A stretch of 64,000 nt of DNA from Patescibacteria group bacterium (GTDB lineage: Bacteria > Patescibacteriota > Minisyncoccia > Phycocordibacterales > UBA12079), in contig JAHITU010000024.1 in assembly GCA_018817595.1 (NCBI GenBank), positions 11,155 to 75,154 of the forward strand, written 5' to 3'. Every line of letters starts with the position of its first letter. Position 1 is the stretch's first letter. The notes under the pieces were generated by a model, which was given only the letters and a program-made list of their open reading frames with translations, ran no database searches and was not told the origin of the DNA. The position numbers and the translations under genes are program-made. Shown piece after piece: positions 24,841 to 27,879 of the stretch.

Positions 24841-27800
24841 TTAAATCTCTTGGAAACTTGGAACCAACATAAATTCCAAAGAAACTGATTCTGAAGGAGC
24901 CCCTACTTCTGTTCCGTTCTGACAAGTTAAAGTAAATTCTGATTTGTGTTCAATAGCAGGAGTAGTAAATGAACCAGAAATTATTCCACTTTCAGATTGG
25001 GCTTGAGTGTAATTGTACGTAGCAATAAATCCATCCGGTCCTTCTAGTGTACAAGAAGTAGCATTGCCAATTCCACTCCAAATGATTTCTCTAGTTTTTC
25101 CTTTGACTACCCAATAAATATTATCATCAGTTCTAAATCCTAAATTAGTTGGAGTTCCTGTAATAGTTTTTGATGCAGGAATAATAGGAGTGGGGCAAGC
25201 AGATACAGGAGGAACCACAGCATTACACAAACCGTCACAACCAATAATTCCAGTACCTGTCATATAACAAGAGTTTGTTCCCGCAGTACAAACTGTACCG
25301 TACCCAACAGGATTAGCAGGAACTGAGGCTGAACAAGTTCCGTCACACTGGATAGTTCCTGAAGCTGTTGTGCCACAAGCATTAGCAGCTGAAGTACAAG
25401 CATCACCTAGATCATCAGGATTATCAGGAGCTGAAACAGAACAATCACCCGTACATTCAATTTGTCCATAATTTACATCCCCACAAGAATTAGCATCTGA
25501 TTCACAAGGGTCTCCTAAACCAGCAGGTACAGTAGGGACAACGGCTGAACAGGTTCCATTACAAGCAATCGTTCCGCTCCCTTTATCTCCGCATAGATTT
25601 GGAGAAGATTGGCAATAACTTCCATAACTGGCTACACAACAAGATACTGTATTACAGCTCTGATATTGAATATTTGAACCTGCACAATACGCTCCCCCTC
25701 CTGATGGGTATGGATTTGAACAAGTTCTTGTTGAATATTGAGTTCCTCCTCCACAAACAACTGTACAAGGAGACCAAGCAGACCAAGCAGACCAACCTCC
25801 GTTTACAGCAGGGCTAACCACTGTAAAATAAACAGGAGCATTAGCATAGGGTGTACCTGAAAAATCAGAGATCCTGAAATTATAGTGAACTCCTTCATAT
25901 TGCCCATACTGCACCCAATGACTATAGGGGGTAAATCCATAATTTGGCAATAAGGAATTACACACTTCAGGGCCTGTCCAATTATTCCTTTCCATGTACC
26001 AACCACTATTAAGTTGCTCAGCTTTATTACTACAATAAAGATCATTATTAAATTCTTGTGGATAACCATAATAAGTTTTAAACCATCGCTCATCGTCCCA
26101 ATGAAACCAAGTGTAATAAGACCCTGGGGAACTAGGAGCACTTGCACTAAAAGTATAATAAGAACTACCCCTTCCTATATAAAAAGAACCTGCAGGATAG
26201 GGTATAATAGCATAATACTGACTACTAGTAACAGAATTCCAACAAACAATAGAACTTTCATACATTGTAGCTGTAATTGTTTCATAAGGGTTATAAGTAC
26301 TTTTGTTTAAGCTAATATTCCAAGTAAATGAATGATCCCAAAACCGATCTGCTCCACCAGCCCTAACAGCATAATTAATTCTATAGGAAGCAGCGTCGGC
26401 TACATTATAAGAACTCCCAAAAAAAGCAAAAGCTTGCAAAAAAACAAAAAAAACAATAACAAAAGTCGGAAATTTAAACCCTTTGTTTTTAAAATAAACT
26501 AAACTCACCAAAATTAAAAACCCTACACCTAATAACAGGTATACTAATAAAGAATTTCCTCTGTCTAGATCAAAATCAAATTTTGTATAGGAAAGAACTT
26601 CTCCTGAGTCATTATCAATTACTTGGATATTTACTTTTGGAAAGAGACAGTCTTTGTTAATTTGAAAATCTATAATCTGATTCAGGGAAAATTGATCAAT
26701 TTCAACCTTTAAAATATCTCCACAACTGTTATTATTTTTATCTACAACTTCGATTTTAGCTATTACATTTTCTACAAAAGAAGGTCCTAGTCTCGAACCA
26801 TAAAAAGAGTCAGCTGAACCACTGTAAAATAAGTTTATCTTGGCTATCTCTCCAGATTCATAAATTGTTTTATCGAGTGAAAGATTAGGAATAGTACTTC
26901 CTTTTCCTCTCAAAACATAATGAGCTGAAACAAAATCAACAGGAATATTTAAACTGTTATTAAAAGTTAATTTAACATCATAGGCTTGAGATTTTTCTGG
27001 TTTAGGTATTTCCAAAGAAAAAGTTTTCTTCTCTAAAGCTTTTATTTCAATGTTATCTTGTGAGAGTTGAGGAGTTTCAACTTTTTCTCCAAAAGTTGAT
27101 CTATAAAAAGTTTCGAAAGCAGGAATCAAAGACAAATCTTTATCAGAGTGGTTTTCTATCTCACAATTTAATTTCAATATTTCTTCTGGATTAACATCCA
27201 CGCCTTGGTCTAAAGTATAATGAGGGTCCAATTCTTCTCCTTCGATATTAAAAAAACAACTTGGTTTTATGATTTCCACAAATGAATTATCTCCTTCAAG
27301 CGTAACTTCACCTAAACTACCTAACCCTAAAATTAAACCTTCTTTATTTTTACTGACTATATATAATTGATATATTCCATTCAAATAATCAGGAGCATCA
27401 TATTTAATTTTTTTAATTATTTCTTCATTTTCTCCTAAATTGATTATTTCAGAATAAATCTTTTCATCAATAATTGATTGTGTTTGTAAACCATCATTCT
27501 CATTTATTAAAATTAAGTGCACCCCATACTGAATATCTGATTGAATCATTTCCCCGTTAGAAAGAACAAAAGATAAATCAAATTTATTATTTATTTGTTT
27601 TATTATTTTAGAATCATATATATTAAGACTTGATATCATTACTATTTCAGGAGTAATATCTTCTCCTAGTTCTTTTGTTGAATCCTCAATATATTTTTTT
27701 ATTAGATCTTGTTCATCTATAGAATCATTCTCTCCAAGCATCATTGAATTCATAAGATTAATTTCTTCTTGAGTTAATTCTTTTGGTGCACCAAAGCCTT

Positions 27801-27879
27801 CTTGTGCTGAAACATTTAGAGTACAATACCCTAAAATTAAAACAGTACAAAACAAAAAATATGTTAATATTTTTTTCAT
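24841..27879 (-). CDS. Secreted/membrane protein (1012 aa) with a thrombospondin type-1 repeat and four tandem Cys-rich modules of about 40 aa
   Basis: Signal peptide [25 protein letters not shown]. Two mid-protein hydrophobic helices. [30 protein letters not shown] matches the W-x-x-W-x-x-W / CSVTCG TSR consensus. It is followed by repeats of the form CxSxANxCGxxxxGxIxCxGxCSAxxPxxP. Confidence 0.7.
   Translation of the reverse strand: [1012 protein letters not shown]

What the first reader, a model, noticed from the sequence alone, without database searches (positions are those of the whole stretch)
24841..27879. Bacterial protein carrying a canonical thrombospondin type-1 repeat plus four tandem Cys-rich modules
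[30 protein letters not shown]...[17 protein letters not shown] (encoded at about 25650-25800) reproduces the WxxWxxW Trp ladder and CSVTCG core of eukaryotic TSP1 (TSR) domains. It is followed by four repeats of roughly 40 aa with six conserved Cys and the pattern CxSxANxCG...GxIxCxGxCSA..P..P (about 24990-25650). The N-terminal half has a signal peptide and two central hydrophobic helices. TSR domains are rare in bacteria and typically mediate adhesion to host or partner surfaces. That is relevant if this organism is an episymbiont, as many CPR bacteria are.
Basis: partly seen in the sequence, partly recalled or inferred. Interest (0 to 1): 0.7.

Follow-up and report, generated by a model that had tools for sequence, protein, structure and literature searches.

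The report
Patescibacterial surface protein carrying thrombospondin repeat
A 1012-residue membrane-anchored surface protein of an uncultured Patescibacteria (CPR) bacterium really does carry a thrombospondin type-1 repeat, as one interchangeable tip module of a large, undescribed CPR family of two-part surface proteins that probably mediate attachment.

Summary
The ORF (24841-27879, minus strand) is real. Residues 693-747 are a true thrombospondin type-1 repeat: Pfam TSP_1 scores 41.3 bits against a cut-off of 21.6, and the segment aligns without gaps to human thrombospondin-1 TSR3. Four repeats follow, but each is 36 aa with four Cys, not about 40 aa with six. They match no Pfam model and no solved structure. 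An Ig-like domain comes next.

The TSR is not unique. The exact protein is already in NCBI as hypothetical, and its 78%-identical orthologue is named "thrombospondin type-1 domain-containing protein". The scaffold is a signal peptide, a beta-sandwich ectodomain, a two-helix membrane hairpin and a proximal domain. It defines a family of at least 2,287 clusters with no Pfam model, and the genome scan found it almost only in Patescibacteria. Eight of 152 representatives carry TSRs.

In six of 41 genomes the protein is split into two adjacent genes, and the second helix is then the signal peptide of gene B. A conserved A-x-A|D-T-F site suggests internal signal-peptidase cleavage. Most long members end in an unexplained aromatic-x-Glu tail.

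Adhesion is inferred, not shown. I rate it a new variant of a known kind, of moderate interest.

The parts
24841..27879 (-). Whole ORF, 1012 aa including the stop codon. It is a fused form of a two-module (A+B) Patescibacteria surface protein.
   Evidence: identical to NCBI hypothetical protein KKH36_03250; family of at least 2,287 clusters.
27805..27879 (-). N-terminal Sec-type signal peptide, residues 1-25 (MKK + hydrophobic core + NVSA|QE).
   Evidence: Hydropathy; read directly from the sequence. No dedicated predictor was available.
26560..27648 (-). Module A ectodomain, residues 78-440. It is an array of Ig-like beta-sandwiches with four conserved Cys (208, 239, 386, 411) and the family signature HYVLRGxxATIQN.
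   Evidence: AF2 pLDDT about 90, all-beta. Only generic tandem beta-sandwich matches in the PDB. Invariant columns. No Pfam family.
26488..26553 (-). TM1, residues 443-464. It is the membrane anchor of module A and is followed by the cytoplasmic basic loop KNKGFK.
   Evidence: In split-gene relatives the protein ends just after this helix and a basic tail.
26392..26472 (-). TM2 with its c-region, residues 470-496. It acts as an internal signal peptide of module B, with a predicted signal peptidase I site A494-D495-A496|A497.
   Evidence: It is homologous to the N-terminal signal peptide of separate B genes. The consensus A-x-A|D-T-F is found in 136 of 149 representatives. Cleavage itself is inferred.
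25810..26391 (-). Module B membrane-proximal domain, residues 497-690 (family motif VNLNKS..PGE).
   Evidence: Conserved across the family. The AF2 model has low to moderate confidence with beta strands. No Pfam hit.
25639..25803 (-). Thrombospondin type-1 repeat, residues 693-747.
   Evidence: Pfam TSP_1 at 41.3 bits against a cut-off of 21.6. Gapless alignment to human TSP-1 TSR3.
25207..25638 (-). Four tandem 36-aa modules with four Cys each, residues 748-891. The array is acidic (13 D/E against 1 K/R over residues 748-895).
   Evidence: AF2 pLDDT above 90, with one short beta-hairpin per unit. No Pfam, PDB-sequence or PDB-fold match. Not related to the TSR by hhalign (probability 1%).
24862..25206 (-). 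Cap Cys (C895) with a low-confidence linker, then the C-terminal Ig-like beta-sandwich (residues 920-1006).
24844..24867 (-). C-terminal tail LVPSFQEI, carrying the family's aromatic-x-Glu terminal motif.
   Evidence: Found in 21 of 27 family members against 12 of 180 background ORFs, p=2.4e-15. Found in 96 of 152 representatives. It is modelled as a low-confidence extension after the last strand.
27952..27997 (.). Hairpin with a 20-bp stem between the upstream MscS-like gene and this ORF. It looks like a terminator and suggests the ORF has its own promoter.
   Evidence: This is a consensus-level match only.

Best explanation
The ORF encodes a cell-surface protein of a Patescibacteria bacterium, made by fusing two normally adjacent genes.

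Module A is a signal peptide, a conserved array of beta-sandwich domains and a C-terminal membrane helix. It forms a membrane-anchored base on the outside of the cell.

Module B starts with the second helix, which is a signal peptide in its own right. This helix re-exports the chain, and signal peptidase I probably cleaves after it at ADA|A (after residue 496). Module B consists of:
- a conserved proximal domain;
- a lineage-variable, disulfide-rich tip, which here is one thrombospondin type-1 repeat and four 36-aa four-Cys hairpin modules forming a rod;
- an Ig-like domain;
- a short aromatic-x-Glu tail.

The tip most likely acts as a binding (adhesion or recognition) module towards a partner cell or polymer surface. 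The conserved A module and proximal domain would hold it at the cell surface.

Shown: domain identities, outside topology by the positive-inside rule, family membership, the split and fused gene forms, and tip variability.

Inferred: internal cleavage, association of A with B, and the adhesive function.
For: TSR identity.

Topology: signal peptide, basic inter-helix loop and conserved extracytoplasmic Cys pairs.

Fusion of two genes:
- In L021, L023, L042, L002, L029 and L031, the A protein stops after TM1 and a basic tail (complete A genes 438-488 aa in L021, L023, L042 and L002; those of L029 and L031 are cut at a locus end).
- The next ORF there overlaps or adjoins it and begins KKMK + hydrophobic core + A-x-A. 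It matches a profile of the query-family region from TM2 onward with E-values of 1.8e-19 to 1.5e-7.

Internal signal peptide across 152 representatives:
- 149 have the helix pair.
- 136 of those have an A-x-A-like site.
- Position -1 is Ala in 105 of the 136, and the downstream consensus is D-T-F.

Family size and range:
- 2,287 cluster representatives at E<=1e-3, and 1,172 at E<=1e-30.
- 41 of 41 GTDB loci carry true members, almost all titled as Patescibacteria lineages.

Tip variability:
- 8 of 152 representatives have a TSR.
- 6 of 152 have two or more 36-aa repeats.
- Only this protein and its truncated orthologue P0016 have both.

Structure:
- The N-domain is confidently all-beta.
- The repeats and the Ig-like domain are confidently modelled.

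An orthologue at 78% identity sits in the same position upstream of rpsS in an independent assembly. The gene is therefore native and stable.
Against: - No experiment or direct computation shows binding to anything.
- This TSR has one Arg and no other charged residue. The canonical second Arg of the ladder is Ser716, so classical glycosaminoglycan binding is doubtful.
- Signal-peptidase cleavage at an internal site is predicted from a motif only; no SignalP-type tool was available. TM2 could equally remain as an anchor.
- AF2 gave no confident A-B contact, and the C-terminal half was poorly modelled in the full-length run.
- The TSR fold itself was not modelled with confidence. It is inferred from about 48% identity to solved TSRs.
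- The gene neighbourhood (ribosomal operon, MscS-like gene) gives no functional clue.
Confidence: 0.6

Rival explanations
1. Same protein, but not processed internally. TM1 and TM2 stay as a helical hairpin, and both ectodomains remain covalently tethered to the membrane as one chain, with the TSR tip about 200 residues from the membrane.
For: - The fused form dominates the family: 149 of 152 representatives have the helix pair.
- AF2 models the two helices as a hairpin.
- Without cleavage, no extra retention mechanism is needed.
Against: - The c-region A-x-A and the +1 to +3 D-T-F are conserved far beyond what a mere membrane anchor needs.
- In the split genomes the same segment is the N-terminal signal peptide of a separate protein.
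Confidence: 0.3
2. The protein is not an adhesin. It is an envelope or S-layer-associated structural protein, or a polymer or nutrient-capture protein, and the Cys-rich tip serves as a rigid spacer or a glycan-binding module for substrate scavenging.
For: - The A module resembles generic stalk and scaffold arrays such as macroglobulin MG domains, FN3 and RbmA.
- The family is very abundant and often occurs as tandem paralogues.
- The window also encodes other giant FN3, discoidin and lamin-tail surface proteins.
Against: - High turnover of tip modules between close relatives is more typical of recognition and host-range determinants than of structural proteins.
- TSRs are binding modules wherever they have been studied (established knowledge of TSP-1, properdin and TRAP).
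Confidence: 0.2
3. The TSR is a recent horizontal acquisition from a eukaryote, or a eukaryotic contaminant or chimeric assembly.
For: TSRs are best known from animals and apicomplexans. Some top database hits are animal proteins from Bolinopsis, Mercenaria and Patella.
Against: - The TSR is in frame inside a 1012-aa ORF that is flanked by bacterial ribosomal genes.
- The same gene with its TSR occurs at 78% identity and in the same synteny in another assembly.
- GC3 of the TSR segment is 0.16, against 0.17-0.23 in neighbouring genes.
- The nearest TSR units are prokaryotic and metagenomic (59-73% identity), against 38-55% for animal units.
- Contigs carrying other multi-TSR proteins have prokaryotic gene content.
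Confidence: 0.03
4. The TSR-like segment is a chance similarity of a Cys/Trp/Gly-rich, low-complexity stretch.
For: The WSAWSAWS motif is encoded by a 9-nt tandem repeat, and the region is compositionally biased.
Against: - The Pfam score is about 20 bits above the curated threshold over the whole profile.
- Fifty-two distinct solved TSR-containing sequences match only this segment.
- All six Cys are in register.
Confidence: 0.01

Closest known systems
Group-1 thrombospondin type-1 repeats of animals (thrombospondin-1 TSR2/3, properdin, UNC5, ADAMTS13; PDB 1lsl, 3r6b, 7yyk)
   Same: About 48% identity to TSP-1 TSR3 in a gapless alignment. It shares the WxxWxxW motif, the C-x3-C-G-G-G core and six Cys in the same register.
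   Different: - It has only one ladder Arg (R718); the second is Ser716.
- Its net charge is about +1.
- It is a single copy within a bacterial membrane protein.
- The eukaryotic C-mannosylation and O-fucosylation that act on the WxxW and CSxTCG motifs are not expected in a bacterium (established knowledge; not tested).
Apicomplexan TSR adhesins (TRAP, MIC2, CSP)
   Same: These are membrane-anchored or surface proteins of an obligate parasite or symbiont, and they present a TSR for attachment to another cell. This is the closest functional analogy. There are weak sequence matches to MIC2, TRAP and CSP (E from 1e-3 to 0.7).
   Different: - They are anchored by a single C-terminal helix linked to a gliding motor, and they carry vWA domains.
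- The sequence relationship is far weaker than to animal group-1 TSRs.
- Their ligands (heparan sulfate, sulfatides) rely on basic residues that are absent here.
Prokaryotic proteins named by NCBI as 'thrombospondin type-1 domain-containing protein' (Patescibacteria P0016, Moraniibacteriota P0083, Pacearchaeota P0067, Alphaproteobacteria P0082, Myxococcales P0093) and TSR-bearing type IV pilin-like proteins (P0046, P0043, P0059)
   Same: They carry the same prokaryotic flavour of TSR (consensus CGGGTQTRTRTCTNPxPxxGGxxC...SQSCNTQxC) at 59-79% identity. P0016 is the orthologue.
   Different: - Most have other architectures, such as pilin N-termini, multiple TSRs or no A module.
- None has been studied experimentally, as far as the searched literature shows.
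Stalk-and-tip adhesins of bacteria built from Ig-like and FN3-like arrays (for example Vibrio RbmA and the MpIBP RII repeats, both found by fold search)
   Same: They show a tandem beta-sandwich array next to the membrane with a variable ligand-binding end.
   Different: - Structural scores are only generic (TM-score no higher than 0.36 in the listed matches; at most 0.23 for all but RbmA).
- Anchoring is by a helical hairpin or an internal signal peptide, not by LPXTG, T1SS retention or an outer-membrane anchor.
Bacterial thrombospondin type-3 repeats (OmpA-family and giant Omnitrophota proteins)
   Same: Only the name and the extracellular location are shared.
   Different: It is an unrelated calcium-binding repeat. 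The only paper in the library that links thrombospondin with CPR-era metagenomics concerns type 3.
Signal peptidase I acting at non-N-terminal sites (for example site-1 cleavage of Bacillus RsiV; PMC6066255 and PMC4183432 appeared and were not read, so the mechanism is from my own knowledge)
   Same: This is a precedent that bacterial SPase I can cut a membrane protein just outside the membrane, after a transmembrane helix.
   Different: RsiV is a regulated anti-sigma factor. Here the site is a constitutive-looking A-x-A after a helix that is a true signal peptide in the split-gene relatives.

Membership tests
Pfam TSP_1 (PF00090), thrombospondin type-1 repeat | Scores above the curated gathering threshold over the full profile | tested here: met
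   41.3 bits against 21.6, E=1.8e-10, profile positions 1-49 of 49, residues 697-747.
Pfam TSP_1 (PF00090), thrombospondin type-1 repeat | Six conserved Cys in group-1 spacing | tested here: met
   C705, C709, C720, C732, C742 and C747 all align with the Cys of human TSP-1 TSR3 without gaps. The disulfide pairing itself was not tested.
Pfam TSP_1 (PF00090), thrombospondin type-1 repeat | WxxWxxW tryptophan motif on strand A | tested here: met
   W696-S-A-W699-S-A-W702.
Pfam TSP_1 (PF00090), thrombospondin type-1 repeat | Arg residues (RxR on strand B) that stack with the Trp to form the ladder | tested here: inconclusive
   The query reads Q714-x-S716-x-R718, against the canonical Q-x-R-x-R. 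Only one Arg is present. The orthologue has V in place of S, and most prokaryotic TSRs keep RTR.
Pfam TSP_1 (PF00090), thrombospondin type-1 repeat | Three-stranded, layered fold | not tested
   - The full-length AF2 run gave pLDDT of about 30 for this segment.
- The second structure job went to residues 746-1012, because MAFFT kept stacking the 36-aa repeats onto the TSR columns.
- The fold is inferred from about 48% gapless identity to 1lsl, 3r6b and 7yyk.
Pfam TSP_1 (PF00090), thrombospondin type-1 repeat | Eukaryote-type C-mannosylation and O-fucosylation of the motif | not testable with these tools
   This is not a requirement for membership, and no such enzymes are expected in a bacterium.
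Undescribed Patescibacteria A+B surface-protein family (no Pfam or NCBIfam model) | Conserved beta-sandwich N-domain with the HYVLRGxxATIQN signature and four conserved Cys | tested here: met
   - 33-40% identity to P0002-P0015, with invariant columns listed.
- The query reads [13 protein letters not shown].
- The family profile finds 2,287 clusters.
- No Pfam or NCBIfam family matches.
Undescribed Patescibacteria A+B surface-protein family (no Pfam or NCBIfam model) | TM1, basic loop, then TM2 followed by an A-x-A site and a proximal domain (VNLNK..PGE) | tested here: met
   The query has helices 443-464 and 470-487, the loop KNKGFK, the site ADA|A and the motif [14 protein letters not shown].
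Sec/SPase I signal peptides (for TM2 as an internal signal peptide) | Basic n-region, hydrophobic h-region, and a c-region with small residues at -3 and -1 | tested here: met
   - This was judged by inspection and regex only; no SignalP was available.
- The query shows KNKGFK, then an 18-residue core, then A494-D-A496|A.
- 136 of 149 representatives have such a site.
- It is homologous to true N-terminal signal peptides of the split B genes.
- Actual cleavage was not tested.
C-terminal sorting signals of the LPXTG, PEP-CTERM or PGF-CTERM type (for the aromatic-x-Glu tail) | Motif followed by a hydrophobic helix and a basic cluster | tested here: not met
   The protein ends 1-6 residues after the motif (…PSFQEI-COOH) and nothing hydrophobic follows. 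NCBIfam gave no hit.
Known Cys-rich repeat families (EGF-like, TSR-derived and others) for the 36-aa module | A profile or fold match | tested here: not met
   - No Pfam hit at E<=1.
- No PDB sequence hit outside the TSR.
- hhalign of the repeat profile against the TSR profile gave probability 1%.

The most novel reading that the evidence does not exclude
The family is a CPR-specific two-component surface display system.
- A membrane-anchored beta-sandwich base (A) retains a signal-peptidase-released tip protein (B).
- The hypervariable Cys-rich end of B (TSR, 36-aa hairpin rods and other cassettes) determines which host or partner the ultrasmall episymbiont binds.
- The conserved C-terminal aromatic-x-Glu tail, which is shared with many other secreted Patescibacteria proteins, would be a new kind of surface-retention or processing signal without a transmembrane segment.
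Probability: 0.15. Interest if true: 0.8.

Novelty: new variant of a known kind. Interest (0 to 1): 0.5.

Why it matters
How Patescibacteria (CPR) cells recognise and hold on to their partner cells is largely unknown beyond type IV pili (abstract of bioRxiv 10.1101/2024.11.25.624915, listed).

This locus points to a very large, unmodelled family of surface proteins found almost only in Patescibacteria, with at least 2,287 clusters at 50% identity. The base is conserved and the disulfide-rich tip is swappable. These are the properties expected of host-range or attachment determinants, so the family offers concrete candidates for genetics in cultivable CPR.

It also shows three further things:
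- The "animal" thrombospondin type-1 repeat has an established, ameliorated pool in uncultured bacteria and DPANN archaea.
- A gene fusion can turn a signal peptide into an internal helix.
- A strongly enriched C-terminal aromatic-x-Glu motif exists with no known function.

None of this changes textbook knowledge, and the TSR annotation already exists in NCBI. The value is therefore as a lead rather than a surprise.

Tried and rejected
1. Structure of the TSR.
- The full-length AF2 run with 15 homologues gave pLDDT of about 30 for the C-terminal half.
- I tried to build a mixed alignment of TSR units, repeats and the Ig-like domain. Local MAFFT reproduces the tool exactly, and it always stacked the 36-aa repeats or Ig fragments onto the TSR columns.
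- The second and last structure job therefore went to residues 746-1012, and the TSR fold rests on sequence homology.

2. Are the 36-aa repeats degenerate TSRs? The MAFFT behaviour suggested it, but hhalign gave probability 1%. Rejected.

3. Fold searches.
- The N-domain gave only generic beta-sandwich arrays.
- Model 2 gave only generic Ig-like hits.
- The afdb50 library was unavailable.

4. The search for related loci with family alignments failed, because no stretch of 7-10 columns was conserved enough. I replaced it with a degenerate DNA pattern for YVLRGxxATIQN, which worked.

5. DNA-level 108-bp tandem repeats were not found. The four modules are old duplications.

6. Recent horizontal transfer or contamination was rejected.

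7. Literature. No paper in the searched library links type-1 TSRs to CPR/Patescibacteria, and none describes a Patescibacteria sorting signal. The one hit linking CPR and thrombospondin concerns type-3 repeats.

8. The idea that the tail docks onto the A module is weakened, because the stand-alone B genes in split loci lack the tail.

9. NCBIfam gave no hit. Rfam found nothing in the window.

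
Full report
**Observation.**
- The minus-strand ORF 24841-27879 encodes 1012 aa.
- Residues 694-747 read [54 protein letters not shown], with three Trp and six Cys.
- Pfam TSP_1 matches residues 697-747 over the entire 49-position profile. The E-value is 1.8e-10 and the score is 41.3 bits against a gathering score of 21.6.
- A search of all PDB sequences hits only residues 688-753. The best match is human thrombospondin-1 TSR3 (7yyk, 3r6b, 1lsl), with per-domain E-values of 4e-11 to 7e-13 and a gapless 56-residue alignment in which all six Cys are in register. 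Properdin, UNC5 and ADAMTS13 follow. The TSR is real.
- Four tandem modules follow, but the period is 36 aa with four Cys each (Cys 756/763/773/777, then +36 three times). One extra Cys lies at each end of the array (748, 895).
- The array spans nt 25207-25638.
- The signal peptide and the two central helices (443-464 and 470-487) are confirmed.

**Identity and provenance.**
- The exact protein is in NCBI as hypothetical protein KKH36_03250 of a "Patescibacteria group bacterium".
- P0016 is a 78%-identical orthologue, truncated by a contig end. It lies in GCA_018902735.1 in the same place, directly upstream of rpsS. NCBI names it "thrombospondin type-1 domain-containing protein".
- GC3 of the TSR segment is 0.16 and of the repeat segment 0.18. 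Neighbouring genes have 0.17-0.23. The higher total GC of this stretch therefore comes from its amino-acid composition alone.
- The TSR units closest to this one are prokaryotic or metagenomic, at 59-73% identity. They include Moraniibacteriota, Pacearchaeota, pilin-like proteins and other members of this family. Animal units are at 38-55% identity.
- Two contigs carrying other multi-TSR proteins have prokaryotic gene content.
- Contamination and recent transfer are therefore excluded. The ancient direction of transfer is unresolved.

**The scaffold is the bigger story.**
- Fourteen homologues share the N-terminal 690 residues or so at 33-40% identity but have different C-terminal ends.
- AF2 models residues 78-440 confidently (pLDDT about 90) as an all-beta array, and models the two helices as a hairpin.
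- Foldseek finds only generic tandem beta-sandwich proteins.
- No Pfam or NCBIfam family covers any part other than the TSR, in the query or in the homologues.
- A profile search of 1.84 billion cluster representatives finds 2,287 members at E<=1e-3 and 1,172 at E<=1e-30.
- A degenerate DNA pattern for the signature YVLRGxxATIQN found 41 loci among GTDB species genomes. All carry true members, 46 ORFs in total.
- Of the 41 record titles, 27 name Patescibacteria lineages (Moraniibacteriota, Paceibacteria, Parcubacteria, Campbellbacteria, Lloydbacteria). Seven say "uncultured Candidatus Saccharibacteria", six say only "bacterium" and one says Bdellovibrionales.

**Split and fused forms.**
- In six loci (L021, L023, L042, L002, L029, L031) the protein ends just after TM1 and a basic tail (438-488 aa where the A gene is complete; L029 and L031 are cut at a locus end).
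- The next ORF there overlaps or adjoins it. It begins with KKMK, a hydrophobic core and A-x-A, which is a normal signal peptide.
- That ORF is homologous to the query region from TM2 onward, with hmmsearch E-values of 1.8e-19 to 1.5e-7.
- The query is therefore a fusion of gene A (signal peptide, ectodomain, membrane anchor) and gene B (signal peptide, proximal domain, variable tip).
- Across 152 representatives, 149 have the helix pair. The loop between the helices has a mean net charge of +3.7 and is positive in 98%.
- Of those 149, 136 have an A-x-A-like site after TM2, with consensus A-x-A|D-T-F. The query has A494-D-A496|A497.
- By the positive-inside rule both large domains are outside the cell. 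Cleavage by signal peptidase I is a reasonable inference but has not been shown.

**The tip.**
- With a clean alignment of repeat-plus-Ig fragments (A4), AF2 modelled residues 746-1012 at mean pLDDT 84.5.
- Each 36-aa unit is a short beta-hairpin module with pLDDT above 90. A low-confidence linker follows, then an Ig-like sandwich (residues 920-1006, pLDDT 81-91). The final PSFQEI is a low-confidence extension.
- The repeat is not detectably related to the TSR (hhalign probability 1%). It has no 108-bp DNA periodicity, so the duplications are old.
- The repeat recurs in many signal-peptide-bearing proteins that lack the A module (P0017-P0021, P0023, P0030 and others).
- Among the 152 family representatives, eight carry Pfam-verified TSRs and six carry two or more 36-aa repeats. 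Only the query (with its truncated orthologue) has both. The tip is a shuffled cassette.

**C-terminal tail.**
- Most complete long members end in aromatic-x-Glu within the last nine residues. Examples are LVPSFQEI here, and IPLWVEI, NWKEVAP and GGWREVAP elsewhere.
- In loci found through the N-domain pattern, which is independent of the tail, 21 of 27 members have it against 12 of 180 other ORFs (Fisher p=2.4e-15).
- It is present in 96 of 152 representatives.
- No hydrophobic segment follows it, so it is not an LPXTG, PEP-CTERM or PGF-CTERM-type signal.
- Stand-alone B genes in split loci lack it.
- Its role is unexplained, and no paper in the library describes a Patescibacteria sorting signal.

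**Mechanism.**
- Most likely (confidence 0.6): a membrane-anchored base (A) and an exported, probably cleaved, partner (B) present a disulfide-rich binding tip outside the cell. The TSR is one of several interchangeable binding modules. This fits the need of Patescibacteria to attach to partner cells.
- Caveats:
  - Adhesion is inferred from what TSRs do elsewhere and from the cassette-like variability of the tip.
  - This TSR has a single Arg and no other charged residue, and the adjoining repeat rod is acidic (13 D/E against 1 K/R). The glycosaminoglycan-type binding of animal and apicomplexan TSRs should therefore not be assumed.
- Rivals: an uncleaved hairpin-tethered single chain (0.3); a structural or nutrient-capture role (0.2); recent eukaryotic origin or an artefact (0.03 or less).

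**Comparison with what is known.**
- The domain is a member of TSP_1. The threshold, the Cys register and the Trp motif are met. The Arg ladder is incomplete, and the fold was not modelled here.
- The protein as a whole is not a member of any described family.
- Functionally it resembles stalk-and-tip adhesins and, by analogy, the apicomplexan TRAP/MIC2 adhesins. It differs in its anchoring, which uses an internal signal peptide or helical hairpin.
- NCBI already auto-annotates relatives as TSR-containing, and the literature searches found nothing on type-1 TSRs in CPR.
- I rate it a new variant of a known kind, with interest 0.5.

Noticed in passing
window 24844-24867 (tail LVPSFQEI); also P0002-P0021, P0083 and L007-L041 family members: A strongly enriched C-terminal aromatic-x-Glu motif ends many secreted Patescibacteria proteins, both with and without the A module. 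It comes in two flavours, ...P-x-[FWY]-x-E-[IFL]-COOH and ...W-[KR]-E-V-x-P-COOH. No transmembrane segment follows it, and no known sorting-signal family matches.
   Followed up: partly
window 11837-27879 (minus strand); L001: Surface-protein genes interrupt the S10/spc ribosomal operon. The TSR gene sits directly upstream of rpsS. A 1958-aa FN3/Pur_ac_phosph_N/F5_F8_type_C protein (14406-20282) and an ABC ATPase with a MacB-like permease (11837-14371) lie between rplE and rplF. At least the upstream part of this arrangement (TSR gene before rpsS, a ~1990-aa FN3-type protein after rplE) is conserved in GCA_018902735.1. rplB, rplW, rplD, rplC and rpsJ are not upstream of rpsS.
   Followed up: partly
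window 43163-46726 (-): This is a 1187-aa secreted protein rich in Thr, Ala, Gly and Ser. It has a clear signal peptide (…APAQA|QT) and no Pfam hit, and it lies in the most GC-rich stretch of the window (0.35-0.38). It is a candidate S-layer or envelope protein.
   Followed up: no
window 35152-39150 (-): This is a 1332-aa protein with a lamin-tail domain (PF00932, E=2.4e-11) and weak beta-helix and fn3 matches. It is another large surface protein with a 'eukaryote-like' domain.
   Followed up: no
window 40604-41371 (-): An IS200-like Y1 transposase (PF01797, E=9.6e-8) lies next to a TPR protein and close to the GC-rich 1187-aa gene.
   Followed up: no
window 25766-25795: The Trp ladder WSAWSAWS is encoded by a 9-nt tandem repeat (CAAGCAGAC, 3.3 copies, 95% matches). 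The motif could expand or contract by slippage.
   Followed up: no
window 1-64000: The Rfam gathering-threshold scan found no RNA family at all in 64 kb, including no ribosomal-protein leaders, despite the long ribosomal operon. A separate tRNA scan was not run.
   Followed up: no
P0046, P0043, P0059 (metagenomic proteins); P0067 (Pacearchaeota): TSRs also occur fused to type IV pilin-like N-termini (PF07963 + TSP_1) and in a DPANN archaeon. This suggests a shared pool of TSR tip modules among ultrasmall, surface-attached prokaryotes.
   Followed up: partly
L014, L016, L028, L037, L041: The A+B family occurs as tandem paralogues with different tips in several genomes. One L016 copy has a TSR-like motif (regex match only, not Pfam-checked).
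   Followed up: no
window 27952-27997: A perfect inverted repeat with a 20-bp stem lies between the MscS-like gene and the TSR gene. It looks like a bidirectional terminator.
   Followed up: no
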